A DNA stretch of 64,000 bases from Candidatus Curtissbacteria bacterium RIFCSPLOWO2_12_FULL_41_16 (GCA_001776545.1 MFBZ01000016.1:1088-65087), one strand, 5' to 3'. Shown: positions 36,574 through 55,569, counted from the first letter of the stretch. Notes: generated by a model from the letters alone, not told the origin. Made by a program: numbers and translations.

Positions 36574-37386
36574 TCATATCAAACTGGTAACAACCACCAG
36601 ACGTTTAAGATTTGTTCCGGGGGGCACGCAAGTCATTAGAGTCAGGTTACGACCGGCTGGCGAAATCGGGTTAATGACAGACGTGTCGCGCGGGTCAACA
36701 ACTCTTAAATACTGAACTGTGAAATGGAGTTTTTGACCTTCAATTTCTACAAAAACATCATCCCCTACCTCCAGATCGGAAAGTTTGGTGAAAATTGCCC
36801 GATAATTTTTAGGATCGTTAAATTGAGGCAGAACCGAGTGGCCAGTGATAAAGCTATTGCCGATTTCGCCGGGAAGAGCGGATCCGGGGAAATGGGCAAG
36901 ACTCTTGTAAAAGTCTAGGCTATCGACTTTAACTTTGGCTCTTGCGATTTTGAGTCTGGGAATTGTCAGGGAAAACTCGCTAGGTTTATTTTCTAATCTA
37001 TAATTTTGGACAAGTGAAGAAGATTCAGAAGCTTCTTCTTTTGAAAAAGTAGTCGGAATGAAATAAGAGGGCTTGTTTCCCTCCTCCTCTTTTGAAAAAG
37101 TAGTCGGAATGAAATAAGAAAATCCATCTGGGTCTTGAATTACTTGGATGCTTGCGGAAAGAGTAGATTTTGATGAAAGCACCTGAGCCTTAGGTATAGG
37201 AAAATCATTAACACCTCCAGACAATCTTGGTCGGGTCACCGTCTGCCAGACGAAATACGGCCAAATGGCAAAAATTACTGAAGTTAAACCTATAATGGTG
37301 ATAAGCCCAAAAAAGACCCGATCGCGACGTTTGGCGACCTGTATTTTGTCGAAAGTATTTTCCTTGACATAAACTGCAAGGGGCAT
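36574..37386 (-). CDS. sortase-family transpeptidase with N-terminal TM anchor and internal 17-aa tandem repeat
   Basis: ITGHSV (His), LTLMTC (TLxTC Cys) and a downstream Arg in NLKRLVV. N-terminal TM helix. Linker repeat SYFIPTTFSKEE x2. Confidence 0.75.
   Translation of the reverse strand: MPLAVYVKENTFDKIQVAKRRDRVFFGLITIIGLTSVIFAIWPYFVWQTVTRPRLSGGVNDFPIPKAQVLSSKSTLSASIQVIQDPDGFSYFIPTTFSKEEEGNKPSYFIPTTFSKEEASESSSLVQNYRLENKPSEFSLTIPRLKIARAKVKVDSLDFYKSLAHFPGSALPGEIGNSFITGHSVLPQFNDPKNYRAIFTKLSDLEVGDDVFVEIEGQKLHFTVQYLRVVDPRDTSVINPISPAGRNLTLMTCVPPGTNLKRLVVVTSLI
37038..37119. repeat. 51-nt tandem duplication inside the sortase gene
   Basis: cttttgaaaaagtagtcggaatgaaataaga occurs twice 51 nt apart, encoding two copies of SYFIPTTFSKEE(E/A). 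Confidence 0.8.
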
Positions 37387-40311: not shown

Positions 40312-42081
40312 TTACTCCTCAATTGTAGCATAGATTCTCCTGAGGTCAGAACCGGCGGATTCTTCTTTGGTGATTTTAAAATGGCCAAGAACGCCGGTAG
40401 ATTTGGCATGCGGTCCACCACAAAATTCTTTAGAATAGGCTTCTTCGATTTTAGTGGATGGGCCAATAAAATAAATATTGACCAAATCTCCGTATTTTTC
40501 TTCAAAAAGTCCGACGGCGCCAATTTTATTTGCTTCTTCTTTAGGCATAACCCTTTGATTAACCATAAGATTATCTCTGATCTTTTGGTTAACGATTGCT
40601 TCGGTCTGTTTTATTTGCTCTGGTGTCGTTTTGGCATGATGCGAAAAGTCGAATCTCAATCTTTCTTCGGTAATGTGAGAGCCGGTTTGGTGGACATGCT
40701 TGCCTAAAACATCACGGAGTGCTTGATGTAAAAGATGGGTAGCAGTATGAAGTTTGGCTGCTTTTTCCGTTTGGACTGTCAATCCCCCTTTGGTTTTTTC
40801 ACCGGCTTTCCTAGAGAGTTCTTGATGGGCTTTAAGTTCTTTTTCAAACCCCGCGAGGTCGACTTGTTTACTTTTCTCAGTCGCTAACTCGATTGTTAGT
40901 TCTATGGGAAAACCATAGTTTTGATAGAGATCGAATGCATCATGACCAGAAATATCTCCGGTAATTTTTTCAAATTGTCTGATACCTGATGAGAGTGCTT
41001 TTTTAAATTTATCTTCTTCTTTTTTAAGGGTTTCAATGATCAAGTTTTGAGACTCATATAGATTAGGATAGAGATCACCATAGGTTTTGATGACAATTTT
41101 GGCTAAATCTTCCAAGAAGTCTTCCTCGATTTTTAACAAAGAAGCATGTCGAATCGCACGTCTGACAAGTCGACGAAGGACATATCCTCTCTCGACATTT
41201 GATGGGAAAACACCGTCTGATATCAAAAAAACTGACGAGCGAATATGGTCGGCCACGATTCTTGTGGATTTAACATCGAGGTAACTGGCGAGATCCTCGA
41301 TTCTTTTGGCAAGTGGTAGAAAAACATCGGTTTCATAAATTGAGAGAGCATTTCCCAAAACTGCCAGCATGCGTTCCAAGCCCATACCGGTGTCAACATT
41401 TTTTTGTTTAAGAGGTTTGAAGCTACCGTCATTTTGCTTGTCATATTGCATAAAGACGTCGTTCCAAATTTCAATGAAGCGATTTGAATCACTCGTTTTT
41501 TCAACCTGCCCTGAATCGTTCGGACTGACGTCATAAAACATCTCAGTGTCAGGACCACAGGGACCGGTTGGGCCTACCGGACCCCACCAATTTTCTTGTT
41601 TGCCATATTTGAAAATGTGATTCTCTGGTAAGCCAAGTTTCCTCCAGATATCGTAGGATTCTTGGTCAAAAGGGGCATCGGCGTCTCCAGCAAAAACCGA
41701 AACATAGATTCTTTTGGCATCGAGTTTTAAAACATCAATTAAAAATTGATAAGACCAAGAAATCGCCTCTTCTCTCCAGTACCCGCCCAAAGACCAGTTG
41801 CCAAGCATTTCGAAAAATGTGTTGTGGACGCTGTCCCCTACCTGATCGATATCATCGGTGCGCAGACACTTTTGGACGTTAACGAGCCGTTTGCCTTCTG
41901 GGTGGGATTCACCCAGCAGATAGGGCACCAGTGGGTGCATGCCGGCAGTGGTAAATAAAACTCTTTTAGTACCGGTAAGTTCGACGGACTCTGACGGAAC
42001 AAGAGATGCAGAAGGAATAATCTTGTGTCCCCTATCTTCAAAAAATTTCAAAAACTTTTGGCGAAGGTCTGAAGAGTTCAT
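40312..42081 (-). CDS. alaS: alanine--tRNA ligase, short form (catalytic + tRNA-binding + editing domains; no C-terminal oligomerisation domain)
   Basis: Class II motifs (FTTAGMHP, GNWSLGGYW), editing-domain HxxxH...H (HTATHLLHQALRDVLGKHVHQTGSH), C-terminal CGGPH. 589 aa. Confidence 0.9.
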   Translation of the reverse strand: MNSSDLRQKFLKFFEDRGHKIIPSASLVPSESVELTGTKRVLFTTAGMHPLVPYLLGESHPEGKRLVNVQKCLRTDDIDQVGDSVHNTFFEMLGNWSLGGYWREEAISWSYQFLIDVLKLDAKRIYVSVFAGDADAPFDQESYDIWRKLGLPENHIFKYGKQENWWGPVGPTGPCGPDTEMFYDVSPNDSGQVEKTSDSNRFIEIWNDVFMQYDKQNDGSFKPLKQKNVDTGMGLERMLAVLGNALSIYETDVFLPLAKRIEDLASYLDVKSTRIVADHIRSSVFLISDGVFPSNVERGYVLRRLVRRAIRHASLLKIEEDFLEDLAKIVIKTYGDLYPNLYESQNLIIETLKKEEDKFKKALSSGIRQFEKITGDISGHDAFDLYQNYGFPIELTIELATEKSKQVDLAGFEKELKAHQELSRKAGEKTKGGLTVQTEKAAKLHTATHLLHQALRDVLGKHVHQTGSHITEERLRFDFSHHAKTTPEQIKQTEAIVNQKIRDNLMVNQRVMPKEEANKIGAVGLFEEKYGDLVNIYFIGPSTKIEEAYSKEFCGGPHAKSTGVLGHFKITKEESAGSDLRRIYATIEE

Positions 42082-43713: not shown

Positions 43714-43974
43714 ATGGCAGAAAAGAAAGAGATACCACAAAAAACAATAATAAATGCCAGCACAATTATTGGAAGTGCTTATTCCCAGCTTGCAAGCGTG
43801 ACAGTCACTAATATAGATATGACAATAGAATTTATTTTTATCAATCCTCGTGATCCGTCCTCTGGACAAGTAGTTTCAAGAGTTACTTTGCCTAAAAAGG
43901 TTGGTTTAAAACTTGCGGAGGTTATTGTAAATACAAACAAAATTAATGAAAAAAGGAGAAGTGAGAAAAAATGA
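43714..43974 (+). CDS. hypothetical protein, DUF3467-like pattern
   Basis: 86 aa. The YSQLASVTVTNIDMTIEFIF...VVSRVTLPKKVGLKLAEVI pattern resembles DUF3467. TATAAT-like box 10 nt upstream. Confidence 0.4.
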   Translation: MAEKKEIPQKTIINASTIIGSAYSQLASVTVTNIDMTIEFIFINPRDPSSGQVVSRVTLPKKVGLKLAEVIVNTNKINEKRRSEKK

Positions 43975-44246
43975 TTAATGCCTTACCCTGGGAATCCAGA
44001 GATTACGACATAATAATAGATGAAGATTTACAACCAAAGATAGGGGAAATTAAGTGGGTAACAAACATTCCGAGAGAAAATCAACTGGTAGTTAGCTTGG
44101 TGGATAATTTTGAATACCCACTGCTAGCAGAATTGCGTTCGCAATTTGAGGCAACAGGCTCATACACAAGTGAGCAATTAGATGAAATAATTGGAGTGTA
44201 TGGGCGGTTACCAAAATACAGAGCGCAAAGTCATAGTACTACCTGA
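43971..44246 (+). CDS. hypothetical protein (possible antitoxin partner)
   Basis: 91 aa. ATGA overlap with the upstream gene. Its 3' end overlaps the RelE/ParE-like ORF by about 55 nt in another frame. Confidence 0.35.
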   Translation: MINALPWESRDYDIIIDEDLQPKIGEIKWVTNIPRENQLVVSLVDNFEYPLLAELRSQFEATGSYTSEQLDEIIGVYGRLPKYRAQSHSTT

Positions 44247-44457
44247 GGCTGAAGACGAAGCTCGCAGACTTAGACTTAAACCACAGCTAGAGAGACTCGT
44301 AGAAAGACTAAGAAAAAGATCACTAATCAAGGGTTTCAAGAAGATAGAACCTAAAACTGCAAATACGTGGGAAGCTCGGTTGAAATTGAGGTGGCGTGCC
44401 TATATCATTTTTGATGATGATATACCAACTATCTTTAGAGTGGGCGATCATTTATAA
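44191..44457 (+). CDS. RelE/ParE-superfamily type II toxin
   Basis: C-terminal half (KKIEPKTANTWEARLKLRWRAYIIFDDDIPTIFRVGDH) matches the RelE/YoeB/ParE consensus W.aR....yR..Y..dd....I.rigHR. The N-terminal AEDEARRL matches the helix-1 pattern. Confidence 0.6.
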   Translation: MECMGGYQNTERKVIVLPEAEDEARRLRLKPQLERLVERLRKRSLIKGFKKIEPKTANTWEARLKLRWRAYIIFDDDIPTIFRVGDHL

Positions 44458-45402
44458 GAAATTCTAAGTTTTCAAAACCCTAACTCCGTTAATTTGCCCG
44501 AGTAATACTTCAAACATTGGCTCGTTTCTGTGATTAAAGCGAAATCCATACTCATCAACATAAGCCTGTAAATACTTTTTGCTAACAACCCGATAGACTC
44601 CTGTTACCCCTCTCTTGAAATGACTCCAAAAGTTCTCGATTCCTTGCGTATGCACTTCGCCTCGTACTGATTCCAACCTGTGATTTACTGATTCGTGGTA
44701 GTAGCCAAACTTCGGCAAGTGATAGTAACCTGCAAATTCGTCTGTAAAAACCCTTGCTGTCGGGTCAACATTCTCTTTTATCTGTTGTAGTAATGTCCAC
44801 TTACCAGTATTAGGAATGTGTTTTAAATATACTTTCCCGCCTCTTTTTAACATACCCATTACTATTTCCTTATCGGTTGAACCAATACCATATTTATTCT
44901 TGCGGTTGCTTGTCTTACCACCTACAAATGTTTCGTCAACTTCTACAATGCCGTCCAGCAAGCCATCTTTTGGCTCTGCCATTAACATTCTGATCTGTTT
45001 AAACATTCTCCACGCCGTCTTATATGAAACTGCAAGCTCACGCTGTAATTGCTTTGCTGATACGCCTGATCGGGTATTAGACATTACAAACATAGCGTAG
45101 AACCAATACTGCAAGGGTGTTGTGGTTTTTTCAAAGATAGTTCCTGCAAGCGGTGCTATTTGATAACCGCAGGAGCATTGATAAACCATTCTGCCTTTTA
45201 TTTTGTAGAAGTTGGATATTTGCTCGAAGTATTTACATTTCTTGTTCTGGCATTTAGCACCTTTTGGATACTTAATCTTAAATATCTCAGCAAGACACGA
45301 TTCATCATCTTTATACTTTCGCAAGAATGTTGCGAGGCTAAATTGATTTTTCATAGCCTCAGTATAGCACACTAATTACCTGTTGTCAAGGGATAAGTGC
45401 CG
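44440..45402 (-). mobile_element. IS1595-family insertion sequence (ends approximate)
   Basis: A single transposase gene filling about 0.9 kb between the toxin cassette and the rodZ-like gene. I could not define terminal inverted repeats by eye. Confidence 0.5.
44464..45354 (-). CDS. IS1595-family transposase (N-terminal Zn ribbon + DDE domain)
   Basis: MKNQFSLATFLRKYKDDESCLAEIFKIKYP...C..C.. ribbon and an ISXO2-like DDE core. Start trimmed to MKNQFSL. Confidence 0.85.
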   Translation of the reverse strand: MKNQFSLATFLRKYKDDESCLAEIFKIKYPKGAKCQNKKCKYFEQISNFYKIKGRMVYQCSCGYQIAPLAGTIFEKTTTPLQYWFYAMFVMSNTRSGVSAKQLQRELAVSYKTAWRMFKQIRMLMAEPKDGLLDGIVEVDETFVGGKTSNRKNKYGIGSTDKEIVMGMLKRGGKVYLKHIPNTGKWTLLQQIKENVDPTARVFTDEFAGYYHLPKFGYYHESVNHRLESVRGEVHTQGIENFWSHFKRGVTGVYRVVSKKYLQAYVDEYGFRFNHRNEPMFEVLLGQINGVRVLKT

Positions 45403-45404
45403 GA

Positions 45405-46031
45405 CTAGCGGGTCAGGCGAATGATTTTGGTGACTTTGGTTTTTGGAGAAAGACGTTTGGAAGCAATAATTTCAATGATGTTTTGGCCGTCTTTAAGCTT
45501 GTGCTCATAAGAAAAATTGCCCTGGGGATCAACCGGGACGAACTGACCATTAATGGCGAGTTGTGATTCTTTTTCTGTTTGGCCTGAAATAACAACGATC
45601 GGTACTGAGGTAGTGAAATCATCGGGAGGACTTGCGACTTTGAGTTCGGGGGCAGAAAGTATCGAGAGATATTGAATTACCAAATAAGCAATAAAGATAA
45701 TAACGGCTACTGTAAAAGTTGAGTTAATAATTTTTGTGGTAGTTGGCATCAGGCCTTTTTTGTATTGCCTGATCGGCGGTTTTTGCGGGTATTTAGCCTC
45801 ATCGTATTCTCTTCTAAAAAGGGCCAGGGCATGTTTTTCGTCAAGGCCTAAATAGGTAGAGTAATTTTTGATGAAACCGCGAATAAAGGCTGATTCAGGA
45901 AGAACCGACCAGTCGGATTCTTCTAAGGCTTGCAGGTGTTGTTTTTTAATAGATAACTGGCGAGCTGCTCTTTTTAGTGGAATTCTTTTGGCTTTCCTTT
46001 GTGAAGATAGAAGCTCGCCTAATGTTGCCAT
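45405..46031 (-). CDS. rodZ: RodZ-like cytoskeleton protein (N-terminal HTH, TM, C-terminal DUF4115-like domain)
   Basis: HTH segment LGELLSSQRKAKRIPLKRAARQLSIKKQHLQALEE...FIRGFIKNYSTYLGLD, then a TM helix VAVIIFIAYLVIQYL. Confidence 0.6.
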   Translation of the reverse strand: MATLGELLSSQRKAKRIPLKRAARQLSIKKQHLQALEESDWSVLPESAFIRGFIKNYSTYLGLDEKHALALFRREYDEAKYPQKPPIRQYKKGLMPTTTKIINSTFTVAVIIFIAYLVIQYLSILSAPELKVASPPDDFTTSVPIVVISGQTEKESQLAINGQFVPVDPQGNFSYEHKLKDGQNIIEIIASKRLSPKTKVTKIIRLTR

Positions 46032-46037
46032 CTACTT

Positions 46038-48152
46038 TTAGTTTGTGGAGTTTTGTGATTGAGCTTGTAAGTATTCATCGGCATTTTTGACTAAAACATC
46101 GCGGGGTTTTGAGCCTTCACCTGGACCTACAATACCGGCTATTTCCAGTTCGTCAAGAAGTCTGGCGGCTCTTGCATAACCGATGCGTAACCTTCTTTGC
46201 AACAGTGAAGCGCTCGCTCGATCGTACTGACAAATTGTACGCACAGCCTCTTCAAAAAGATCATCTTTTTCGCCTTCACGTCCGGCCATTTTACCAATCG
46301 GCAGCTGGGTAACTTCTTCGGTGTATTCGGGGGCAAATCCTGATTTTTTAAGAAAATTTATTAAATTTCTGATTTCCGTATCAGAAACGAAAACGCCTTG
46401 AATTCTTTGTGATTTTGAAGCATCAGGGGGGACATAAAGCATGTCTCCTTTCCCCAGGAGTTTGTCAGCGCCCGGCTGGTCGAGAATCACCCTGGAATCA
46501 ACCATGGAAGAAACATTGAAAGCAATCCGGCAGGGAATATTAGCCTTGATAAGGCCAGTGATTACATCAACAGAAGGTCTTTGGGTGGCAATGACTAAAT
46601 GAATACCGGTGGCCCTGGCCATGGCGGCGATTCTGCAAATGGCATCTTCAACCTCAACCGGGGCAAACTCCATCAAATTATGCAACTCATCTATTAGAAT
46701 GATAATGTAAGGTAGTGCCTGGAAACCGGAGAATTCATTATAGCTTCCGATATTTCTAACTTGAGCTTCATGGAATAATTTGTAACGCCTATCCATTTCT
46801 CCCATTGCCCACTTCAGGGCCGAAAGAATTTTATCCGGTTCGACAATAACCGGTGTTAGAAGATGGGGAATATCATTATATTCTGAAAGCTCTACACGCT
46901 TGGGATCCGCAAGGATGAGCTTTATCTCTTGGGGACTTGCCCTAAAGAGCAAGGTGGCAATGAGAGCATTTAAAAGAACTGATTTGCCGGAACCCGTAGT
47001 GCCGGCGATTAAAACATGGGGCATTTTGGCTATGTCATTAACCACAATGTTACCGGTGACATCCAACCCTAGGCCGACTGCAGTTTTGGATTTGTTTGTC
47101 CGCAATAAATCGCTTGCAAGAACATTTTTTAAAGAAACGATTTCCGGTGAAATGTTAGGTATTTCAATGCCGACAAGAGATTTGCCGGGGATCGGTGCTT
47201 CTATCCTGACGTTACCGGTTGGGGTTGCCAGGGCAAGGGCCAAATTATTTTGGAGGCTGATGATCTTGGAAAGTTTAGTTCCCATGGGAATTTCCAGAGC
47301 ATATTGGGTAACCGTCGGACCAAGATTAATCTCGGCTACTTTGGCGGTTATACCAAAACTTTCAAGAGTTTTTTCGATGATAGCGGCATTTTGCTTTAAG
47401 TTACCACGATTAGCGGAGGCTCCATGATTATCTGAAAGAAGAGACAAAGGCGGGTATTGCCAAATTTGTGCATGATCTGGATTGTTAACAATAACGCTTG
47501 TTCCCAGGGGATATTCAAAGTCTTTTTCTGCTTGTTTTTTTGCTTGTAGATTTTCTTTGGGAGCAGTATAGCCCGATTGGGTTTTGGTGATAAGTTTTGG
47601 TTTTGATCTCCCAAATATTTTCGGGCTTAATTTTGCGGTAAACTTAGTTACCATTTGATACGTCTTAACAATAGCCGCAATTGCTTGATCTAAACTGGTG
47701 TTAAAGGCAATAAAATTCGCAACTAAAAATGTAAAAAATAGAATAAGAAAAGCACCGGCCGGGGTAACTATTGATTTTAAAAACGACCATAGGGAGTTTC
47801 CTATTAAACCTGAAAGTTCTTCGGACATTGAAGATACTAGGCCAAGCGCCGAAAGGAGAACGGCAATTGCGCCTAAGATTACGTTAGTTTTGGCAAAACG
47901 AGATTTTAGGGAAAGTAAAGGCAAACTGATTAATATCCCGATTATGGGAAGAAAAATAATCCCGATGCCAAAAAGATCGTAAAAGTATTCTTTGAAGACA
48001 AGTAGTGCGCCTGCTTTGGTGAACAATGATAAAAAAAGAAGCAGTGACGTGGCCAAAATTGATATACCGATAATAGTGGTTATTGTTTTCTTTTCAAGAT
48101 AAATTGGTGGTCCAAATGCAGATTTTCTACGTCTTCTCATGGTAGAGTTCAA
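46038..48152 (-). CDS. ftsK: DNA translocase FtsK/SpoIIIE
   Basis: Four N-terminal TM segments, Walker A GTTGSGKS, Walker B ILIDE, gamma-like winged-helix C-terminus. Confidence 0.9.
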   Translation of the reverse strand: MNSTMRRRRKSAFGPPIYLEKKTITTIIGISILATSLLLFLSLFTKAGALLVFKEYFYDLFGIGIIFLPIIGILISLPLLSLKSRFAKTNVILGAIAVLLSALGLVSSMSEELSGLIGNSLWSFLKSIVTPAGAFLILFFTFLVANFIAFNTSLDQAIAAIVKTYQMVTKFTAKLSPKIFGRSKPKLITKTQSGYTAPKENLQAKKQAEKDFEYPLGTSVIVNNPDHAQIWQYPPLSLLSDNHGASANRGNLKQNAAIIEKTLESFGITAKVAEINLGPTVTQYALEIPMGTKLSKIISLQNNLALALATPTGNVRIEAPIPGKSLVGIEIPNISPEIVSLKNVLASDLLRTNKSKTAVGLGLDVTGNIVVNDIAKMPHVLIAGTTGSGKSVLLNALIATLLFRASPQEIKLILADPKRVELSEYNDIPHLLTPVIVEPDKILSALKWAMGEMDRRYKLFHEAQVRNIGSYNEFSGFQALPYIIILIDELHNLMEFAPVEVEDAICRIAAMARATGIHLVIATQRPSVDVITGLIKANIPCRIAFNVSSMVDSRVILDQPGADKLLGKGDMLYVPPDASKSQRIQGVFVSDTEIRNLINFLKKSGFAPEYTEEVTQLPIGKMAGREGEKDDLFEEAVRTICQYDRASASLLQRRLRIGYARAARLLDELEIAGIVGPGEGSKPRDVLVKNADEYLQAQSQNSTN

Positions 48153-48247: not shown

Positions 48248-49306
48248 TCACCATTTTGGTAGATAATCTTTCAGGTTTTGAGCGGTAAGAGTAAGGCTTT
48301 CCAGTTTACTTTCCACTTTTAGCTTAGCTACTTTGCGGCATATGTTATTTAATGTTCTTTCTAAAGTTCTCATGCCTGCATCAAAACCAAGGGGCCTGAC
48401 GATTTGTGGCCAAACATCGTCTTCTAAAACTAAATTGCCGGGTTTAAGGCCTGAAGCAGCAATTATCCTTGGTAAAAGGTAATTTCTACCGATTATTATT
48501 TTTTGCTCATCGGAGTAAGAGGGCATTTCAATTATTTCTAATCTGTCTAAAACTGCCGTCGCGATACCTGTTGTATTATTGGCCGTAGCGATAAAGAAAA
48601 TTTCCGACAAATCAAACGGGTGGTCTATAAAATGGTCTAAAAATTGACTGTTCTGTTCGGGGTCTAAGAGTTCGACCAGTACACTCATGATGTCTGCCTT
48701 CGCTTCATCGGTAACCCTATCAATTTCATCCAGGAGAATTACAGGGTTTTTGGTTTGGACACGTCGCAAGACTTTCATAATTTGGCCCGGTTCAGCGTCT
48801 GTATAGGTCTTTGCTCTACCCCTTAGCTGTATGGCATCACCCATGCCGCCCATGGGAATTCTGCCAAATTGGCGACCCAATGCTTGGGCGATAGAGTAAG
48901 CCATGGTTGTTTTGCCGGTACCAACTAATCCCAGAAAAAGTAGAGTCGGGGCCTTTGGTCCTTGTGGATTTTGATGCTTTTGATTTTTAAGGTTTGCAAC
49001 AGCAATATACTCAAGTATGCGTTCTTTGACATTGTCCAATCCATGGTGATTGGCGTCCAGAATTTTCTTGGCGTTTTCCAGGGAGGCCGTATCCGTGCTT
49101 CTTTTATTCCAGGGCAGCGAGATGATCCAATCCAAGTATCTGGCGACGGAATCATACTCCTGTGAATATCCTTGTTGTGTGGCAAGGCGAACCAAGCGCG
49201 CGAGCATAGCTTGGGTTTTTTGGGCAAGCTCCGGCGGGAGCGCGGCGCCTGCCAGTTTATTTTCAAGAAGCGTGATGTCTTCAAATTGGGCAGGTGCAAC
49301 AGCCAT
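48248..49306 (-). CDS. Lon-type AAA+ ATPase module lacking both the N-terminal LAN domain and the C-terminal serine-protease domain
   Basis: Lon-specific pre-AAA helix (ARYLDWIISLPWNKRS...HHGLDNVKERILEYIAV), Walker A GLVGTGKTT, Walker B ILLDEID, sensor TAN, Arg finger LDRLE. Stops where the Lon protease domain would begin. The 5' 200 nt is GC-rich. Confidence 0.75.
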   Translation of the reverse strand: MAVAPAQFEDITLLENKLAGAALPPELAQKTQAMLARLVRLATQQGYSQEYDSVARYLDWIISLPWNKRSTDTASLENAKKILDANHHGLDNVKERILEYIAVANLKNQKHQNPQGPKAPTLLFLGLVGTGKTTMAYSIAQALGRQFGRIPMGGMGDAIQLRGRAKTYTDAEPGQIMKVLRRVQTKNPVILLDEIDRVTDEAKADIMSVLVELLDPEQNSQFLDHFIDHPFDLSEIFFIATANNTTGIATAVLDRLEIIEMPSYSDEQKIIIGRNYLLPRIIAASGLKPGNLVLEDDVWPQIVRPLGFDAGMRTLERTLNNICRKVAKLKVESKLESLTLTAQNLKDYLPKW

Positions 49307-49336
49307 AGTCCAATTGTAACAGATGGAAAGCTGATT

Positions 49337-50152
49337 TTAATTTGAATTTAAAGAAGCAACTAGATTAGGATTATCTCTCAGTTTATCTTTTAACCGGTAG
49401 GACTCTCCTTCTATTTTAATTATTGTAGCGTGATGATGCAGTCGATCGAGAATCGCTGCTGCTCTTTGTTGGCTGCCAAAAAGCCTCCCCCACTCCTCGA
49501 AAGATCTATTAGAAGCAAAGATAACTGAACCGGTTTCGTATCTTTGGTGCAGTAGCTTGAAAAGAAAAGTCGCTGCATTGGTACTTGTTTCATACAAATC
49601 CATTTCATCCAGTATTAAAAGATCTGGCCGCAGGAGTGAGGTGAAGAGATAATGGCGTTCTTCGGCACTAGCTTTTCTCTCGACTAGTTCTACTAGTTGG
49701 TCGAGGGTTAAAAATTTTACATCATGACCACTATAAATTGCTTCATAGCCAAGTGCCACACTAAGGTGAGTCTTACCTACTCCCGGAGGACCCATAAAAA
49801 CAACGTCTTCTGTTTTATCAATGTACTGGCAAGAAGCTAAATCGCTAATTTGTGTTTCGTCAACCGTGGGCTGAAAGGTAAAATCAAATTCTTTTAGAGT
49901 TCTCTTAAACGGAAAGCCGGCCTTTTGAATCCAGCGCTGCAAACGGCTGTCCTCTCTTAAAGTGAACTCTTTTTCAAGCAGCCCTTCTAAAAAATCGTGC
50001 GGAGTTTTTTTGTTTTTGATACACTCTTGCGCAGTTCTATCAAAGGATGAACTCATTCCATCAAGGCCAAGTTCTTTCAATGCTTGACTAATTCTTTCGT
50101 TCTGTTTTAGAGAGCTAGATATTTTATAAATTCTAACTTTCGACTTTGCCAT
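49337..50152 (-). CDS. istB: IS21-family helper ATPase IstB
   Basis: DnaC-like AAA: GPPGVGKTH Walker A, LILDEMD Walker B. Confidence 0.9.
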   Translation of the reverse strand: MAKSKVRIYKISSSLKQNERISQALKELGLDGMSSSFDRTAQECIKNKKTPHDFLEGLLEKEFTLREDSRLQRWIQKAGFPFKRTLKEFDFTFQPTVDETQISDLASCQYIDKTEDVVFMGPPGVGKTHLSVALGYEAIYSGHDVKFLTLDQLVELVERKASAEERHYLFTSLLRPDLLILDEMDLYETSTNAATFLFKLLHQRYETGSVIFASNRSFEEWGRLFGSQQRAAAILDRLHHHATIIKIEGESYRLKDKLRDNPNLVASLNSN

Positions 50153-51335
50153 TTTTGTTTTGCGGAATAAATTGGTTGTAATAACTAAGCGGTCGTATTT
50201 TTATCTCAATTGAATATTTCTCCAAGTTCCCAACCTGTATGTCAAATTCTTTTTCTGTGTTTTTAGGTTGACGAAGATTCTTGATAATGTGCTCGTCGCT
50301 GACGATCCACTCATTTCGGCCTTGAGAAACAATATGTTTGGCAATAACCTTGTCTTCATAATAAATCTTGATAAAGGGAACGCCGAGATTGTTAACTTCC
50401 TCTAAGAAAAGTCTTTTGGCCGCAAATTCGAGAGGTACTGAATAGTAGTTGGAATGATATTGAACCATCCCGTCTTTGGTACTACTTCTAACTTCAAAAT
50501 GGGAAATTTGATATCTTTGTTGTTTTGACGGAAATCTCAAGTATGCTTTTTCGAACAACCATCTGTCTATGGGTCTTTCTCCTGTTGTCCTGTGGTTTCG
50601 GTTATTGGCCACTTGACTTAGCCAAAAACTCGCTTTTTCATTCAGTTCCTCTAACGAAAAGGAGTTCTTTTTAAAACTCATACCCTGCATGAAATTGTTT
50701 CTTACAAATTTAACGGAGGCCTCAACTTTTCCTTTCGCTCTTGGCCAATACGGAGGGCAAACAAATATTTCGAAACCATAGAAATTGGCAAAATCCAGAA
50801 AAGCAGGATTGTAATGGTTTTTTACCTCCCCGTTTTCTAGTTTTTCCCTCCTTAAAACGACAGTTTTCATATTGTCATAAACTATGGTCTGGGGAATTCC
50901 TAACTGCTCAAAAGCATGAATATGACATTCCAACAATGATTGGATATTTTGTTTCGTGGTAAATTCGACATAGAGTGCGCGACTGTAGCCCAATACGTAA
51001 ACGAAGCAGTACAGCCTTTTAGCTACACCATTAATTTCGATTTCTCCGAAAGATCCCCAATCCACTTGAGCTTGCTCTCCTGGGCCTGTCTCTAATCGTT
51101 GACTACGCTTTAGAGTTTGAAAATTTTTAACATCTGTTTTCATGAACCGGTAAAGAGACATGTAACAGCCTTGATATCCTTGTTGCCTGATTTCAAAGTA
51201 CAACTTCTTGATGTTTGCAACGCTTGCTTTGGTTCTTTGCCCAAGATAATCAACAAAGGGAACAAGCTTCTTGGGAACTTTCAATGAAACGTTTTTGCTA
51301 ATTTTATAAGCTCTTTTCTGATGTCGCTTAAACAT
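50133..51335 (-). CDS. istA: IS21-family transposase IstA
   Basis: 400 aa. N-terminal HTH and DDE integrase core (QVDWG...). 20-nt overlap with istB. Confidence 0.9.
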   Translation of the reverse strand: MFKRHQKRAYKISKNVSLKVPKKLVPFVDYLGQRTKASVANIKKLYFEIRQQGYQGCYMSLYRFMKTDVKNFQTLKRSQRLETGPGEQAQVDWGSFGEIEINGVAKRLYCFVYVLGYSRALYVEFTTKQNIQSLLECHIHAFEQLGIPQTIVYDNMKTVVLRREKLENGEVKNHYNPAFLDFANFYGFEIFVCPPYWPRAKGKVEASVKFVRNNFMQGMSFKKNSFSLEELNEKASFWLSQVANNRNHRTTGERPIDRWLFEKAYLRFPSKQQRYQISHFEVRSSTKDGMVQYHSNYYSVPLEFAAKRLFLEEVNNLGVPFIKIYYEDKVIAKHIVSQGRNEWIVSDEHIIKNLRQPKNTEKEFDIQVGNLEKYSIEIKIRPLSYYNQFIPQNKNGKVES

Positions 51336-51477: not shown

Positions 51478-51855
51478 ATGCGTATGGTGATTGCCGATGA
51501 TTGGTCGATAGTTTTTTACACAACAAAGAGCGGTCGCAATCCTGTCCAGGAGTTCTTAGACACTCTTGATGCAAAAACCAACTCTAGATTTATATGGTCG
51601 ATTAGGGAACTACATCGTCGCAATGTTCATGCCCGAAAACCATTAGTAAAACATATCGAAGAAAAGTTGCGGGAATTGCGGGAAGAAAGTATGGGTAATA
51701 TTCACAGAATTATATATGTATTTTTCACTGGCCGAAAGATTATTCTATTGCATGGTTTTCAGAAAAAGTCACGACAAACGCCGCGTCGAGAAATTGACAT
51801 CGCATCGTCTCGACTTAAAGACTTTATAGACAGGCAGGGAGGTGAAAATGACTAA
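51478..51855 (+). CDS. higB: HigB-like toxin (Gp49/RelE family)
   Basis: VFYTTKSGRNPVQEFLDTLD....I...I..L ... IYVFFTGRKIILLHGFQKKSRQTPRREI is the Gp49-like HigB signature. Toxin-first gene order. Confidence 0.75.
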   Translation: MRMVIADDWSIVFYTTKSGRNPVQEFLDTLDAKTNSRFIWSIRELHRRNVHARKPLVKHIEEKLRELREESMGNIHRIIYVFFTGRKIILLHGFQKKSRQTPRREIDIASSRLKDFIDRQGGEND

Positions 51856-52186
51856 ACTAGATTTAATTAAAAAGGGAGAACTTGCATATAAGAAGTGGGA
51901 GAAAAAATTCCTTTCCGATTCCGAGAATCGTCGTATTTACGAGGAAGAAGCTGCCAAAAAAGAACTTTGGCTACAATTAGTGGAAGCTCGACAAGCTGCG
52001 GGGCTTACACAGCAACAACTTGCAAAAAGACTTGGTGTTTCACAAGCGCAAGTGGCTAGAGTGGAAAAGCGTGGTTATGATGCCTATACTTTAACTTCAC
52101 TGCGTCGCTATGTTAACGCTTTAGGTAAGGGCTTTTCTCTAAAAGTTATTATAGAAGAACAACGTATGTATTCTATTAACAATTAA
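51842..52186 (+). CDS. higA: HigA-like antitoxin (XRE-family HTH)
   Basis: LVEARQAAGLTQQQLAKRLGVSQAQVARVEKRGY HTH_XRE. 14-nt overlap with higB. Confidence 0.75.
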   Translation: MKMTKLDLIKKGELAYKKWEKKFLSDSENRRIYEEEAAKKELWLQLVEARQAAGLTQQQLAKRLGVSQAQVARVEKRGYDAYTLTSLRRYVNALGKGFSLKVIIEEQRMYSINN

Positions 52187-52216
52187 GTTGTGCAGTGTAA
52201 GTTTGGGCGGAAGTCT

Positions 52217-52305
52217 GTAAGTTTTCAAAAACTTTTTATCAAATTTAGCCTCGAGATTTTAGAAATTTTTGGTAAATTGAGGCTAAATGTTTTTTGAAAA
52301 CTTAC
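52217..52305. terminator. nested inverted-repeat structure between convergent higA and the 52310..53344 gene (probable bidirectional terminator)
   Basis: Perfect 15-bp IR gtaagttttcaaaaa / tttttgaaaacttac (52217-52231 / 52291-52305) encloses a perfect 10-bp IR atttagcctc / gaggctaaat (52243-52252 / 52279-52288). T-rich on the plus side. Confidence 0.45.
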
Positions 52306-52309
52306 ACAT

Positions 52310-53344
52310 TTATTTTAACATCATTAAGCCAGAAAACTTATTGGCCTTCAAAATAAATTCGAACTTGGTAACTTTTTCAAAGACTTGGGGATTTTTCTTT
52401 TTTTGGCCGAAAAGCAAATCATAAAAATTTGGGCCGAGTGGTTGATTGCCATTTCTAAAAAAAACAGCCATTGACGTATCAGGCGGTAGTTTTGGGAGTT
52501 CAAAGACAGGATTTTTTAATTTTTGGACAGATGCAAGAATGCGGGCGGCGGCATTTGAGGAAACAAAGAAAGACCACTCTCCAATTTGGAAAAATGTAAA
52601 TGTTTTTCTTTGATCATTCTCGTCTGGTGGTAAGTTCAAAAGATGAAAAGTTATATTTTCTTGTGATTCTTCCTTGTATACAGGTTGTTGGCCTTCGGCT
52701 GTTGGAATATTTTTTAACCTATCCAAATCTATCTTTTTGGCGCTTCTTAAAATAACTGCAACATCAGCGTCTTGTCCAAGAATAATAAGATATTGGCCAT
52801 GTTCTGAAATTAGATTGTCATCAATCCAGTTCGCAAGTTCTTTGGGAAAAGTAAATCTGGTTTTTAGAAAATCTCTGAGGTCTGGTCCAAAGATGACTAG
52901 ATTGGCAGAGCCGGGAATTATAAACTTCTTGCTTGCAAAATTGTCTGATATAAAAGGACTTGTTTCTCGTAGGGTTGGAAATGGTACGCGGGTCATCGTA
53001 CCTTTAAAGCTGATTTCTTTGGCTTTAATTGCGAGCCTTACATTCACTGGCGTTAGGTATGAAAGTCTAGCCTGCGAAGTTGCGTCTAACTCAAACTCAA
53101 CTCCCTCTTTTGTGCTTTGTGGTAAATTGAGTTTTTCTAAAATTTGCGAAAACCTTAACTCGTCTTCTTCTTGAAGATTAAAGTTGAGTTGAAACTTATT
53201 TTCATAAGAAGTGAGTTGGAGTGAATTTTCGTTTTGGTTAAATAATTTTAGAAAAGCTGTTAAGAAAAGGGTTGCTAAGAGAAGTATTGTAAACCCTAAG
53301 ATTATCTTTGTCTTGCCTACCGGCAGGCGGAGGCTATTTTTCAT
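52310..53344 (-). CDS. hypothetical secreted/membrane-anchored protein
   Basis: 344 aa. N-terminal signal/anchor ILGFTILLLATLFLTAFL. No recognised domain. Confidence 0.6.
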   Translation of the reverse strand: MKNSLRLPVGKTKIILGFTILLLATLFLTAFLKLFNQNENSLQLTSYENKFQLNFNLQEEDELRFSQILEKLNLPQSTKEGVEFELDATSQARLSYLTPVNVRLAIKAKEISFKGTMTRVPFPTLRETSPFISDNFASKKFIIPGSANLVIFGPDLRDFLKTRFTFPKELANWIDDNLISEHGQYLIILGQDADVAVILRSAKKIDLDRLKNIPTAEGQQPVYKEESQENITFHLLNLPPDENDQRKTFTFFQIGEWSFFVSSNAAARILASVQKLKNPVFELPKLPPDTSMAVFFRNGNQPLGPNFYDLLFGQKKKNPQVFEKVTKFEFILKANKFSGLMMLK

Positions 53345-53346
53345 TT

Positions 53347-55569
53347 TTAATATCTTTTCGGGGGACGTCTGCGATCTGACCCAGTACGCCTATTGTCAAA
53401 TCTTTTATGGACAAAGTCTCTTCTCTGGTCACCTTGGTGCCTCGCGGAACCTACCGCATCTCCTTCTAAATTCATTGAGAGATTAACTCTGCCTTGATCA
53501 TCAATTTCAGCAACTCTGACTTTGACTGTTTGGCCTATTTTGACAATGTCTTCAACTTTATCAACTCTGTAAGATGCCAGTCTCGAAACGTGTACTAAGC
53601 CTTCTTTACCCGGGAGGATTTCGACCATAGCTCCAAACGGGAGAATTCTTTTAACCTTACCTTCGTAGACTTCACCCGGCTGAGGCTCTTTAACGATACC
53701 TTCTACCCACTGAGCAGCTTTTTGACAAGCCTGGGCGTCTTTGCCACTGATAGTGACTGTACCTTCGTCGTTGATGTCGATAGCAACACCTGTTTCGGAG
53801 ATGATTTTATTAATTGTACGGCCGCCAGAACCGATTACTTCGCCAATTTTTGACGGATCAATTCTAACTAAGATAACAGTTGGGGCGTGTGGTGAAATTG
53901 TTTTTCTTGAACCAGGAATTGTAGAGAGGATTTTTTCTAATATCGCAAGTCTGGCCTTCCTCGCTTTTTCGAGAGCTTCCTCAACAATTTTTACCGTGAT
54001 ACCATTTAATTTCGTGTCCATTTGAATTACGTTGATGCCATTTTTGGTGCCGGCGACTTTGAAATCCATATCTCCCTGGGCATCCTCCTGGTAGGCAATA
54101 TCTGTTAAAAGAAGGTATTTTGATTTGTCTTTTTTATCGGAAATTAAACCGATAGAAATACCTGCAACGGGTTCTTTTATGGGTACACCGGCATCCATAA
54201 GTGCCAGGGTAGAACCGCATACAGACGCCATAGAAGTTGATCCGGCAGAAGATAAAACTTCTGAAACAACTCGAATAGTGTATGGGAAAGCATCGTTTGA
54301 GGGAAGAACAGGTAAGAGCGCTCTTTCGGCTAGCGCACCGTGACCGATTTCCCTTCTTCCAGGTGAGCCCAGTCTCCTGACTTCACCTGTTGAAAAAGGA
54401 GGAAAGTTGTAATGATGCATGTATCTTTTGGTCCCTTCTTTACTCATACCTTCAATTAATTGCTCGAGAGCGGGAGATGCTAAGGTGGCAATCGATAAAA
54501 CTTGGGTTTCACCCCTTTCAAAAAAGCCGGAACCGTGGGTTCTTGGCAGAATTCCTACCTTGGTTTTGATCGATCTTATTTCTTCGGGAGCACGACCGTC
54601 GATCCGCTTTTTGTTAACCAAAATCTGTTTTCTTAAAAATTCACTGACAGCATCATCAAGCATGGCAGAAAGAATCTTCGTGGTTATTTCTTGATTGCCG
54701 GATAACTGTGATTGGTCTTCTTTTAGAAACTCATTTTCGATTTTTTCTAGCGACTCTCCAAACCAGTTCTCGCTTTCAGCTTTGGAGGGCAATTCTAATT
54801 CTTTAATAAGATTGTCTTGAATAAATTTTTTGATAGCTTCTTCTTTTTTGGGATCCAACTTTTGAACTTCGTACTGTTGTTTTTGGCGACCCGCCTCCTT
54901 GACAAATTCACCGATGAGTGAAACGATTATTTCCCCTTGTTCGAGGGCAAACTTAACCGCTTGCGCCATGGATTTTTCTTCAACCTCTTGGCCGGCAGCT
55001 TCAATCATAACAATTTCGTCACGAGTTGAGGCGACGACTAAATCGAGACTTGAGAATGTTTTTTCTTCTTCTGTTGGGTTTAAGATAAAACCACCATTTT
55101 GTCTGCCAATTCGCACGGCCGCAATTGGTCCGTCCCAGGGTATGTCGGAAATAGAAAGGGCACAAGAAGCAGCAATTAAAGAAACGACATCGGGATCATT
55201 TGCTTGATCCACAGAAAGAACAGTAATAACGACTTGAACTTCAGCTTGGTAATCTTTAGGGAAAAGAGGACGAATAGCGCGATCAATTAGCCTGGAAGTT
55301 AAAATTGCTTCCTCAGAAGGACGACCTTCTCTTTTAATAAATCTCGAGGTTGAAATTTTACCGCCAGCATATAATCTTTCTTCATAATCAACAGCTAATG
55401 GGAAAAAATCGACGTCTGGACGGGCCGTTTGAGAAACAGCGGTTGCTAAAACAACCGTTTCGCCGTAAGAAGCTAAGACTGAGCCACTGGCCTGGCCGGC
55501 CAGTTCACCGGTTTCCAGAACTAGTTTTTTGCCTGCAAGTTCGATTTCTTTTCGAATAATCTTTTGCAT
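53347..55569 (-). CDS. pnp: polyribonucleotide nucleotidyltransferase (PNPase)
   Basis: Two RNase PH domains, KH and S1 domains. Arg-rich C-terminal tail. 740 aa. Confidence 0.95.
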   Translation of the reverse strand: MQKIIRKEIELAGKKLVLETGELAGQASGSVLASYGETVVLATAVSQTARPDVDFFPLAVDYEERLYAGGKISTSRFIKREGRPSEEAILTSRLIDRAIRPLFPKDYQAEVQVVITVLSVDQANDPDVVSLIAASCALSISDIPWDGPIAAVRIGRQNGGFILNPTEEEKTFSSLDLVVASTRDEIVMIEAAGQEVEEKSMAQAVKFALEQGEIIVSLIGEFVKEAGRQKQQYEVQKLDPKKEEAIKKFIQDNLIKELELPSKAESENWFGESLEKIENEFLKEDQSQLSGNQEITTKILSAMLDDAVSEFLRKQILVNKKRIDGRAPEEIRSIKTKVGILPRTHGSGFFERGETQVLSIATLASPALEQLIEGMSKEGTKRYMHHYNFPPFSTGEVRRLGSPGRREIGHGALAERALLPVLPSNDAFPYTIRVVSEVLSSAGSTSMASVCGSTLALMDAGVPIKEPVAGISIGLISDKKDKSKYLLLTDIAYQEDAQGDMDFKVAGTKNGINVIQMDTKLNGITVKIVEEALEKARKARLAILEKILSTIPGSRKTISPHAPTVILVRIDPSKIGEVIGSGGRTINKIISETGVAIDINDEGTVTISGKDAQACQKAAQWVEGIVKEPQPGEVYEGKVKRILPFGAMVEILPGKEGLVHVSRLASYRVDKVEDIVKIGQTVKVRVAEIDDQGRVNLSMNLEGDAVGSARHQGDQRRDFVHKRFDNRRTGSDRRRPPKRY

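What the first reader, a model, noticed from the sequence alone, without database searches (positions are those of the whole stretch)
48248..49306. Lon-type AAA+ module with no protease domain and no LAN domain, mosaic GC, immediately downstream of IS21 and higBA
What the sequence shows: the 352-aa product aligns to the Lon region from the pre-AAA helices through the alpha-helical subdomain (Walker A/B, sensor-1 TAN, arginine finger). It stops exactly where the Ser-Lys protease domain would begin. Only 95 nt of non-coding DNA separates it from ftsK. Its first ~200 nt are ~52% GC, and the gene start lies 30 nt from the IS21 end.

Inference: either this is an IS-truncated lon remnant whose protease part is encoded elsewhere, or it is a stand-alone Lon-like unfoldase or adaptor. 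The latter would be interesting next to a HigBA module, whose antitoxin would normally be a Lon substrate.
Basis: partly seen in the sequence, partly recalled or inferred. Interest (0 to 1): 0.6.

Follow-up and report, generated by a model that had tools for sequence, protein, structure and literature searches.

The report
Protease-less Lon ATPase of Microgenomates
This gene is not a broken lon but one member of a conserved, uncharacterised family in ultrasmall Microgenomates and Dojkabacteria that keeps only the ATPase motor of the Lon protease, with altered substrate-gripping loops, so it probably no longer feeds proteins to a protease.

Summary
ORF 48248..49306 (-) encodes 352 aa that match Lon only from the pre-AAA helices to the lid. 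There is no LAN or S16 protease domain. It lies 30 nt after istB and 95 nt before ftsK, and its 5' end is GC-rich.

The "IS-truncated lon remnant" reading is refuted. The protein is collinear end to end with orthologues of 342-383 aa in 83 loci, and at least 380 GTDB species genomes hold a relative. These come from Curtiss-, Woese-, Gottesman-, Shapiro-, Chisholmbacteria and related groups; more distant short forms occur in Dojkabacteria. The gene sits in a fixed housekeeping context: pnp - (Curtissbacteria-only membrane protein) - AAA - (udg, rnj) - ftsK - rodZ-like. All 96 protease-less sequences split from 58 full-length Lons as one group.

The ATPase motifs are invariant. The pore loops are rebuilt: canonical RGHRRTY[VI]GA[ML]PG becomes RGxSRx[Y/H/R/F]P[D/E]AEPG, and the pore-loop-2 aromatic becomes A/G/S/T.

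The IS21 insertion is old. A lineage 79% identical in DNA shares it. higBA is swappable cargo, so the toxin-antitoxin link is incidental.

Best reading: a stand-alone, Lon-derived, probably non-threading ATP-driven remodeller. I could not test whether a separate Lon or protease exists elsewhere in these genomes.

The parts
48248..49306 (-). Gene for a 352-aa stand-alone Lon-derived AAA+ ATPase. It comprises an N-terminal helical bundle, the alpha/beta ATPase domain and the Lon lid, with no LAN and no S16 protease domain.
48905..48931 (-). Walker A, GLVGTGKTT (aa 126-134). G-x-x-G-x-G-K-T is invariant in 83/83 orthologues.
48782..48823 (-). Rebuilt pore-loop 1, RGRAKTYTDAEPGQ (aa 162-175). The family motif is RGxSRx[Y/H/R/F]P[D/E]AEPG; canonical Lon has RGHRRTY[VI]GA[ML]PG.
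   Evidence: role of the Tyr from PMC8503904
48689..48742 (-). Walker B, VILLDEIDR (aa 189-197), followed by pore-loop 2, RVTDEAKADIM. The aromatic residue that corresponds to Meiothermus Lon Trp431 is Ala202 here.
48365..48580 (-). Region holding sensor-1 N243 (ATANN), Arg finger R255 (LDRLE) and sensor-2 R313 (DAGMR). All three are invariant in 83/83.
49307..49340 (-). The 30-nt istB-AAA spacer with a promoter-like site (TTAAAA-16-TACAAT, with a TG extension). The TGTTACAATTG core is conserved in the sister lineage L092, and the -10 element ends 6 nt before the ATG, which suggests a possible leaderless transcript.
   Evidence: inference only
49337..51335 (-). IS21-family istA (50133..51335, 400 aa) and istB (49337..50152, 271 aa), in the same orientation as the AAA gene. 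This is an old insertion shared with lineage L092.
51478..52186 (+). HigB-like toxin (Gp49/PF05973, 125 aa) and HTH antitoxin (114 aa). This is strain-specific cargo between the palindromic repeat and IS21.
52214..52306 (.). A ~92-nt palindromic repeat element directly after the stop codon of the upstream membrane-protein gene. It marks the left edge of the inserted block.
52310..53344 (-). A 344-aa N-terminally membrane-anchored protein with no Pfam match. In other Curtissbacteria its stop codon abuts or overlaps the AAA start codon. No homologue was detected (tblastn) in the non-Curtissbacteria loci.
53347..55569 (-). pnp (PNPase). It is the conserved upstream neighbour of the AAA gene across Microgenomates.
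45405..48152 (-). ftsK (46038..48152) and a rodZ-like HTH_25 gene (45405..46031). These are the conserved downstream neighbours.

Best explanation
The ORF is an intact, vertically inherited member of an uncharacterised protein family found across Microgenomates and, in more distant short forms, Dojkabacteria. The family descends from LonA and has kept only the pre-AAA helical bundle and the AAA+ module. It has lost both the LAN substrate-binding domain and the S16 protease domain. These points are shown. It is inferred that the protein still binds and hydrolyses ATP in a ring, because the Walker A and B motifs, sensor 1, the trans-acting Arg finger and sensor 2 are all invariant. It is also inferred that it no longer works as a polypeptide-threading unfoldase feeding a protease. 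The aromatic-hydrophobic-Gly pore-loop-1 motif has been replaced by a different, strongly conserved acidic motif (x-P-D/E-A-E-P-G), and the pore-loop-2 aromatic residue is gone. It most likely acts as a non-proteolytic, ATP-driven remodeller or switch acting on a specific, probably basic, client. Its fixed place at the end of the nusA-infB-rpsO-pnp cluster, usually just before RNase J and ftsK, points to a housekeeping role. In this strain an old IS21 insertion, with swappable cargo that is higBA here, separated the gene from its upstream operon partner. The gene is now probably transcribed with, or from the end of, the IS.
For: Homologues and length:
- The top 120 homologues are all 345-364 aa and 68-77% identical, and none has LAN or Lon_C (one 281-aa fragment aside).
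- The window protein is collinear from M1 to W352 with 17 orthologues, with about 130 invariant columns.
- 83 orthologous ORFs measure 342-383 aa.
- At least 380 GTDB species genomes hold a relative.

No missing domains nearby:
- No LAN or Lon_C coding sequence exists in the 64-kb window or in any of the 83 loci.

Synteny:
- pnp lies within 1.3 kb upstream on the same strand in 65 of 75 assessable loci.
- RNase J lies downstream in 47 of 61, and ftsK in 54 of 61.

Single origin:
- All 96 protease-less sequences form one bipartition against 58 full-length Lons.
- Mean identity is 64% within the family and 41% to Lon.

Motifs:
- The ATPase motifs are invariant in 83/83.
- The pore-loop-1 Tyr is Y29/H31/R13/F3, against Y in 58/58 Lons.
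- The neighbouring [VI]-G-A-[ML] has become P-[DE]-A-E.
- The loop's net charge is -1.6, against +0.9 in Lon.
- The pore-loop-2 aromatic residue has become A/G/S/T.
- In Meiothermus LonA these two residues (Tyr397, Trp431) contact substrate and are required for degradation (PMC8503904).

Age of the insertion:
- Lineage L092 shares the istA-istB-AAA arrangement at 78.8% nt identity over 3.2 kb.
Against: - The window's own protein, like most Curtissbacteria orthologues, still has the pore-loop-1 Tyr (Y168), so some threading activity cannot be excluded in this lineage.
- I could not search a whole Microgenomates genome. A separate Lon_C protease, or a second full-length lon, may exist elsewhere.
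- Conserved gene order within one class may partly reflect shared ancestry rather than functional coupling.
- Hexamer formation without the protease domain is assumed and was not tested. That the protease domain is a main oligomerisation determinant in LonA is my own recollection, not a tool result.
- The AlphaFold model of the protein was poor (pLDDT 55) and gives no structural support.
- There are no expression or biochemical data.
Confidence: 0.6

Rival explanations
1. Split Lon. The 352-aa protein is the unfoldase subunit of a two-gene Lon, and it docks onto a separately encoded S16 (or other) peptidase located elsewhere in the genome.
For: The ATPase machinery is intact. The protein ends exactly at the AAA/protease boundary. 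Curtissbacteria members keep the pore-loop-1 Tyr/Phe. Whole genomes could not be searched.
Against: No Lon_C coding sequence lies within the fetched flanks (6-10 kb each side where available) of any of the 83 loci, or in the 64-kb window. The pore-loop-1 aromatic residue is lost in 51 of 83 members, and the pore-loop-2 aromatic residue in essentially all. The C-terminus carries no invariant docking motif: the terminal residue is W in 42, absent in 26 and Y in 14.
Confidence: 0.12
2. RNA-metabolism or ribosome-linked remodeller. The acidic-pore ATPase acts on basic RNA-binding clients, or on the PNPase/RNase J machinery, with which it is co-transcribed.
For: The gene sits directly after pnp in 65 of 75 loci and before rnj in 47 of 61, at the tail of nusA-infB-rpsO-pnp. 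The pore loop is acidic and conserved.
Against: This rests on gene order alone. In Curtissbacteria rnj is not adjacent and a membrane protein is interposed. There is no physical or expression evidence.
Confidence: 0.2
3. IS21-truncated lon pseudogene: a remnant of a full-length lon whose N-terminal part was cut off by the IS.
For: istB ends 30 nt upstream of the start codon, and the 5' end has unusual GC.
Against: The N-terminus MAVAPAQFEDI... is native; compare P0002 MSAAPAQFEDI and P0004 MAQTAQFEDI, the latter from a locus without an IS. All 83 orthologues have the same length. No LAN or Lon_C remnants are found. The ORF is identical in 8 contigs of this strain and is kept intact in a lineage that diverged after the insertion.
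Confidence: 0.01
4. HigBA-linked function: the ATPase serves as an unfoldase or adaptor for the neighbouring HigA antitoxin.
For: higBA lies about 2.2 kb upstream in this strain.
Against: higBA is on the opposite strand and beyond IS21. The sister lineage L092 has two small membrane ORFs there instead. The 18 other Curtissbacteria loci (L001-L018), L093 and the rest of Microgenomates have no TA module at this position.
Confidence: 0.02

Closest known systems
LonA (endopeptidase La, MEROPS S16; e.g. B. subtilis 3m6a, Meiothermus taiwanensis 6wqh, E. coli 6u5z)
   Same: The pre-AAA helical bundle, AAA+ alpha/beta domain and Lon-type lid match at about 40-45% identity (E 1e-75 to 1e-79). Walker A and B, sensor 1, the Arg finger and sensor 2 are all conserved.
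   Different: There is no LAN domain and no S16 Ser-Lys protease domain. The score is below the NCBIfam lon cutoffs. Pore-loop 1 (TY[VI]GA[ML]PG) is replaced by x[Y/H/R/F]P[DE]AEPG, and the pore-loop-2 aromatic residue is lost.
LonC (Meiothermus 'Lon-like protease with no ATP-powered unfolding activity', PMC3391209)
   Same: It is also a Lon derivative in which one of the two catalytic halves has been given up (title and abstract listed).
   Different: It is the mirror image. According to that paper's title and abstract, LonC keeps the protease but has no ATP-powered unfolding activity. This family keeps a fully conserved ATPase and has no protease.
Stand-alone AAA+ partners of separate peptidases in the HCLR clade (ClpX/ClpP, HslU/HslV)
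   Same: They are ATPase-only polypeptides of the same AAA+ clade and of similar size (clade membership from general knowledge).
   Different: Those proteins keep the aromatic-hydrophobic-Gly pore loop and have dedicated docking elements (IGF loop, HslU C-terminus; my recollection). Here the pore loop is acidic, and no conserved docking motif or nearby peptidase gene was found.
IS21 family insertion sequence (istA/istB)
   Same: IstA has an rve DDE core and a Mu-transposase C-terminal domain. IstB matches PF01695. The two genes overlap by 20 nt. Direct 22-nt repeats lie upstream of istA.
   Different: No clean terminal inverted repeats or target-site duplication could be found. The element sits at the same locus in two lineages that differ by 21% in DNA.

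Membership tests
LonA protease (endopeptidase La, TIGR00763 / NF008053) | N-terminal LAN substrate-binding domain (PF02190) | tested here: not met
   Pfam gives no hit. The alignment to Lon starts at Lon residue ~245. tblastn with 13 full-length Lons finds no LAN coding sequence in the window.
LonA protease (endopeptidase La, TIGR00763 / NF008053) | C-terminal S16 protease domain with a Ser-Lys dyad (PF05362) | tested here: not met
   The ORF stops at Lon position ~579-580. There is no Lon_C hit in the protein, the window or 83 orthologous loci.
LonA protease (endopeptidase La, TIGR00763 / NF008053) | Whole-protein score above the curated cutoff | tested here: not met
   TIGR00763 scores 337 bits against a 608 cutoff. 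NF008053 scores 257 bits against 891.
LonA protease (endopeptidase La, TIGR00763 / NF008053) | Lon-type AAA+ module with Lon lid (PF00004 + PF22667) | tested here: met
   AAA E 4e-19 and Lon_lid E 6e-10. PDB Lon matches at E 1e-75 to 1e-79.
LonA protease (endopeptidase La, TIGR00763 / NF008053) | Substrate-gripping pore loops (pore-loop-1 Tyr followed by a hydrophobic residue and Gly; pore-loop-2 aromatic residue) | tested here: not met
   The window protein has Y168 but T-D in place of [VI]-G, and A202 in place of the pore-loop-2 aromatic residue. Across the family Tyr occurs in only 29 of 83. The role of these residues is taken from PMC8503904.
Functional AAA+ ATPase (classical catalytic motifs) | Walker A GxxGxGK[ST], Walker B hhhhDE, sensor-1 N, Arg finger, sensor-2 R | tested here: met
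   All are invariant in 83/83 orthologues. Activity itself was not tested.
IS21 family insertion sequence | istA (DDE transposase) followed by an overlapping istB (IstB ATPase) | tested here: met
IS21 family insertion sequence | Terminal inverted repeats and a 4-8 bp target-site duplication | tested here: inconclusive
   No convincing TIR or TSD was found. There are only 22-nt direct repeats upstream of istA. All database copies of this exact IstA lie at this same site, so the ends could not be mapped by comparison.
HigBA-type toxin-antitoxin module | A Gp49/HigB-like toxin gene preceding and overlapping an HTH (Xre-type) antitoxin gene | tested here: met
   PF05973 E 1e-26; HTH_3/HTH_37 E 1e-10; 14-nt overlap. 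Activity was not tested.
Known anti-phage defence ATPases (PADLOC, e.g. BrxL/Lon-like) | A significant match to a defence-system model, and a defence-island context | tested here: not met
   Only weak, generic AAA hits (best IetA, E 6.5e-06, 24 bits). The context is housekeeping genes.

The most novel reading that the evidence does not exclude
Microgenomates and Dojkabacteria have no proteolytic Lon at all, and this protein is its only descendant. On this reading it is an ATP-driven ring with an acidic axial channel, repurposed from protein degradation to non-destructive remodelling of basic clients in the RNA-processing and translation machinery (the pnp / RNase J neighbourhood). That would be the first natural example of a Lon lineage converted into a pure chaperone or remodeller.
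Probability: 0.2. Interest if true: 0.75.

Novelty: new variant of a known kind. Interest (0 to 1): 0.55.

Why it matters
A review abstract listed (PMC9569914) describes all Lons as single-chain enzymes containing both ATPase and protease domains. Here a whole class-level lineage of ultrasmall bacteria, at least 380 species genomes, carries a Lon descendant that kept a perfectly conserved ATPase. It discarded both the substrate-recognition and protease domains and replaced the substrate-gripping loops with a new conserved acidic motif.

If these organisms also lack a proteolytic Lon, this changes how we picture protein quality control in reduced genomes. It also offers a natural experiment on what a Lon motor can do without its protease.

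On the practical side, database labels such as 'ATP-dependent Lon protease' for these genes are misleading, and metabolic reconstructions that count them as Lon would be wrong.

Tried and rejected
- **AlphaFold2 model of the 352-aa protein.** I used the 18-sequence alignment. The model was poor (mean pLDDT 55, with the ATPase core below 40), so no fold search was run on it and no structural claim rests on it.
- **IS21 ends.** A repeat search and manual comparison of the junctions in the window, L092, L093 and L004 gave no convincing terminal inverted repeats or target-site duplication. All 23 or more contigs carrying this exact IstA are the same strain at the same site, so the ends could not be mapped by comparing insertion sites.
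- **Recombination test for the GC-rich 5' part.** Segment-wise identity to seven orthologues shows only that the first ~35 codons are closest to L092 and L093. There is no clear breakpoint. The cause of the GC gradient remains unresolved.
- **Upstream membrane protein as a hidden LAN or protease domain.** There is no Pfam or PADLOC hit. The AlphaFold model has pLDDT 70. The best Foldseek hits are weak: TP0453 (E 1e-3, TM 0.33-0.42) and DcrB/PsbP-like subdomains. This does not look Lon-related. It is probably an extracytoplasmic membrane-anchored protein, and it was detected only in Curtissbacteria loci.
- **Literature.** Four full-text searches found no paper on protease-less Lon in Patescibacteria/CPR. 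Two CPR genome papers say nothing about cytoplasmic ATP-dependent proteases.
- **Rfam and tRNA scans of the window.** Nothing was found.
- **Third large protein search.** I ran no further search on a Lon_C query, because a top-120 list cannot be targeted to Microgenomates and so would not answer the question.

Full report
**1. The observation**

The ORF at 48248..49306 on the minus strand (ATG start, 352 aa) is real. Pfam finds only an AAA domain (aa 122-259) and the Lon-specific lid (aa 284-334). NCBIfam's lon equivalog TIGR00763 aligns to the protein over model positions 256-567 of 795. The score is 337 bits, against a trusted cutoff of 608. Against the PDB the best matches are all LonA. B. 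subtilis 3m6a gives E 5e-79 over query 11-351. Meiothermus Lon aligns at its residues 245-579 and E. coli Lon at 253-579. No match extends into the LAN or protease regions.

- 95 nt separate the gene from the ftsK TTG start at 48152.
- 30 nt separate the gene's ATG from the istB stop at 49337.
- GC is 0.52 in the first 210 nt.
- IstA, IstB, a Gp49/HigB-like toxin and an HTH antitoxin lie upstream.

**2. It is not a truncated lon**

A search of the 5.8-billion-protein collection returned 120 best hits. All are 345-364 aa (one 281-aa fragment aside), 68-77% identical, and carry only AAA and Lon_lid domains. Where named, most are from Candidatus Curtissbacteria or Patescibacteria.

The window protein is collinear with 17 of them from Met1 to the C-terminal Trp. 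Its N-terminus (MAVAPAQFEDI) is the family's native N-terminus; compare P0002, MSAAPAQFEDI. A scan of one genome per GTDB species found at least 380 relatives. The best 80 come from Curtiss-, Gottesman-, Shapiro-, Woese-, Beckwith-, Chisholm- and Blackburnbacteria, at 53-75% identity. In all 83 loci the ORF is 342-383 aa.

tblastn with 13 full-length Lons finds nothing but the AAA region in the 64-kb window. Queries made from Lon N-terminal and protease domains find nothing in any of the 83 loci. More distant short forms (41-52% identity, 348-548 aa) also carry only AAA and Lon_lid. Their extensions are low-complexity sequence, and two are from Dojkabacteria.

In a neighbour-joining tree of the shared module, all 96 protease-less sequences fall on one side of a single bipartition and all 58 full-length Lons on the other. 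Mean identity is 64% within the family and 41% to Lon. This fits one ancient origin. It is a distance tree on a limited sample, not a rigorous phylogeny.

**3. Genomic context**

In Curtissbacteria relatives the gene order is:

nusA - infB - x - rpsO - pnp - [a ~310-340-aa membrane-anchored protein with no Pfam hit] - AAA - ftsK - rodZ-like - ... - alaS.

The AAA start codon overlaps the stop codon of the upstream gene by 4 nt. The window has the same order. The difference is that about 3 kb is inserted exactly between the membrane-protein gene (52310..53344) and the AAA gene. The insert consists of a palindromic repeat, higBA on the opposite strand, and istA-istB.

In the other Microgenomates the membrane-protein homologue is not detected. 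There the AAA gene follows pnp directly and is followed by a UDG-like gene and/or RNase J, then ftsK. The counts are:
- pnp within 1.3 kb upstream on the same strand in 65 of 75 assessable loci.
- RNase J downstream in 47 of 61.
- ftsK downstream in 54 of 61.

So the gene is part of a conserved housekeeping cluster and not of a mobile or defence island. PADLOC gives only weak, generic AAA hits.

**4. The IS21 and higBA**

Every contig carrying this exact IstA (23 or more) shows the same higBA-IS21-AAA-ftsK junction. All are the same strain at 99.9-100% identity, including NCBI MFBT01000038.1 of assembly GCA_001776495.1.

The closest different lineage (P0002/L092; AAA 78% identical in protein) has the same istA-istB-AAA arrangement with the same ~30-nt spacer. 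It aligns at 78.8% nucleotide identity over 3.2 kb. IstA is 87% identical and IstB 86%. The insertion therefore predates the split of these lineages, and the AAA gene has stayed intact since.

Left of the IS, L092 carries two small membrane ORFs where the window has higBA. The next relative, L093, has no IS and no TA module. The higBA neighbourhood is thus incidental cargo, and the proposed antitoxin link is not supported.

I could not find terminal inverted repeats or a target-site duplication.

The spacer holds a promoter-like TTAAAA-16-TACAAT with a TG extension. Its core, TGTTACAATTG, is conserved in L092, and the -10 element ends 6 nt before the ATG. This suggests a leaderless transcript starting at the ATG, but that is inference only.

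**5. GC**

The 5' ~630 nt of the gene run at 0.45-0.52 GC, with GC3 of 0.43-0.53. The 3' part has GC3 of 0.30-0.40 and neighbouring genes 0.33-0.39. More distant orthologues show no such gradient. The two closest orthologues are also GC-rich over the whole gene: L092 at 0.50, and L093 at 0.47 in a 0.435 genome with no IS.

The elevated GC is therefore a property of this subclade's allele and not of the IS junction. Segment-wise identities show no clear recombination breakpoint. The cause remains open and looks minor.

**6. What the sequence says about mechanism**

Across the 83 orthologues the following are invariant:
- Walker A (G-L-V-G-T-G-K-T)
- Walker B (D193-E194)
- sensor-1 N243
- the Arg finger R255
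- sensor-2 R313

An invariant trans-acting Arg finger implies that ATP is hydrolysed in an oligomeric ring (established AAA+ knowledge).

The pore loops tell a different story. The canonical pore-loop 1, RGHRRTY[VI]GA[ML]PG, has Tyr in 58/58 Lons. In this family it is replaced by RG[QRK][SA][RK]x[Y/H/R/F]P[D/E]AEPG. Tyr survives in only 29 of 83 members (plus 3 Phe), mostly Curtissbacteria and including the window's Y168. The following positions are Pro (66/83), Asp or Glu (79/83) and Glu (82/83). The loop's net charge is -1.6, against +0.9 in Lon. The pore-loop-2 aromatic residue (F/Y/W/I in Lon) is A/G/S/T.

The HMMER alignment to Meiothermus Lon places Y168 and A202 opposite the Tyr and Trp. 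These correspond to Tyr397 and Trp431, which contact substrate and are required for degradation (PMC8503904).

The new loop is itself strongly conserved, so it is functional but chemically different.

My inference is that the family is an active ATPase that has given up hydrophobic polypeptide threading. That would be consistent with having no proteolytic chamber to feed. It probably engages a specific, likely basic, ligand. The nature of that client is unknown. The pnp/rnj neighbourhood is the only lead.

**7. Rivals**

- **Split Lon.** A Lon with a separately encoded peptidase cannot be excluded, because no whole genome could be searched. It is disfavoured by the pore-loop changes, by the absence of any Lon_C gene in 83 neighbourhoods, and by the lack of an invariant C-terminal docking motif.
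- **Pseudogene and HigBA-linked readings.** Both are contradicted by the comparative data set out above.

**8. Comparison with what is known**

The closest family is LonA. The protein fails four of five LonA membership features tested here: LAN domain, protease domain, curated score cutoff, and pore loops. It should not be called a Lon protease.

It is the mirror image of LonC, which is described as a Lon-like protease with no ATP-powered unfolding activity (PMC3391209, listed). A review abstract states that all Lons are single-chain proteins containing both ATPase and protease domains (PMC9569914).

No NCBIfam or Pfam family model is specific to this family. Four full-text literature searches found no description of it. 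Sources label it 'AAA family ATPase', 'hypothetical protein' or, misleadingly, 'ATP-dependent Lon protease'.

**9. Verdict**

The gene itself is an ordinary, intact member of its family. The family is an undescribed variant of Lon: ATPase-only, with rebuilt pore loops, clade-wide, and in a fixed housekeeping position.

Interest is moderate to good at 0.55. It would rise if whole-genome searches show that no proteolytic Lon exists in these organisms.

Noticed in passing
window 52214-52306: A ~92-nt palindromic element sits immediately after the stop codon of the 344-aa membrane-protein gene. It folds into a long hairpin (dG -27.5 kcal/mol, z -6.6). Two further 100%-identical copies occur in alternative assemblies of the same strain (L085 and L086, at 586-678 and 1341-1431), which is where the assemblies diverge. 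A 29-nt arm is also found at the start of L092. It could be a MITE/REP-like repeat or a bidirectional terminator.
   Followed up: partly
window 52310-53344 (-): A 344-aa protein with an N-terminal TM helix and no Pfam hit. It evolves fast (30-53% identity where the AAA protein is ~70-77%) and was detected only in Curtissbacteria loci. In relatives its stop codon abuts or overlaps the AAA start codon. The AlphaFold model has pLDDT 70. Fold hits are weak: Treponema TP0453 and DcrB/PsbP-like domains. It is probably extracytoplasmic.
   Followed up: partly
window 49307-49340 (-) and L092 2495-2523: A conserved TGTTACAATTG (extended -10-like) element ends 6 nt before the AAA start codon in both IS21-bearing lineages. 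The gene may be expressed as a leaderless mRNA from the IS end.
   Followed up: partly
window 49337-51335 versus L092 499-2494: The IS21 istA and istB genes are better conserved between the two lineages (87% and 86% aa) than the adjacent housekeeping AAA gene (78% aa). They sit at the same locus in both lineages. This is unusual stability for an IS. It may be immobile or domesticated, or under selection because it now drives AAA-ftsK transcription.
   Followed up: no
L092 51-379 (-) versus window 51478-52186 (+): The cargo between the palindromic repeat and IS21 differs between lineages. The window has higBA. L092 has two small hydrophobic ORFs of 73 and 36 aa.
   Followed up: no
window 44464-45372 (-): An IS1595-family (ISXO2-like) transposase of 302 aa is inserted just downstream of the rodZ-like gene. 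Next to it, at 43714-44457 (+), are three small overlapping ORFs. These are not among the genes called at the corresponding positions of L001 and L003.
   Followed up: no
window 40312-42081 (-): The alanyl-tRNA synthetase is only 589 aa. Relatives have 588-596 aa with just tRNA-synt_2c and tRNA_SAD domains. From memory, typical bacterial AlaRS is about 870 aa, so this is probably a lineage-wide loss of the C-terminal domain.
   Followed up: no
proteins P0139-P0152: The top-scoring 50%-identity cluster representatives for the AAA query are very long proteins (889-1675 aa) with 2-5 separate Lon-AAA-like stretches each. They could be tandem Lon-AAA repeats or gene-call fusions. Their origin is unknown.
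   Followed up: no
window 37034-37068 and 37085-37119; 7751-7798 and 20438-20485: Two other repeats were seen: a 35-nt direct repeat (97% identical, 51 nt apart), and a 48-nt inverted repeat pair 12.6 kb apart (77% complementary).
   Followed up: no
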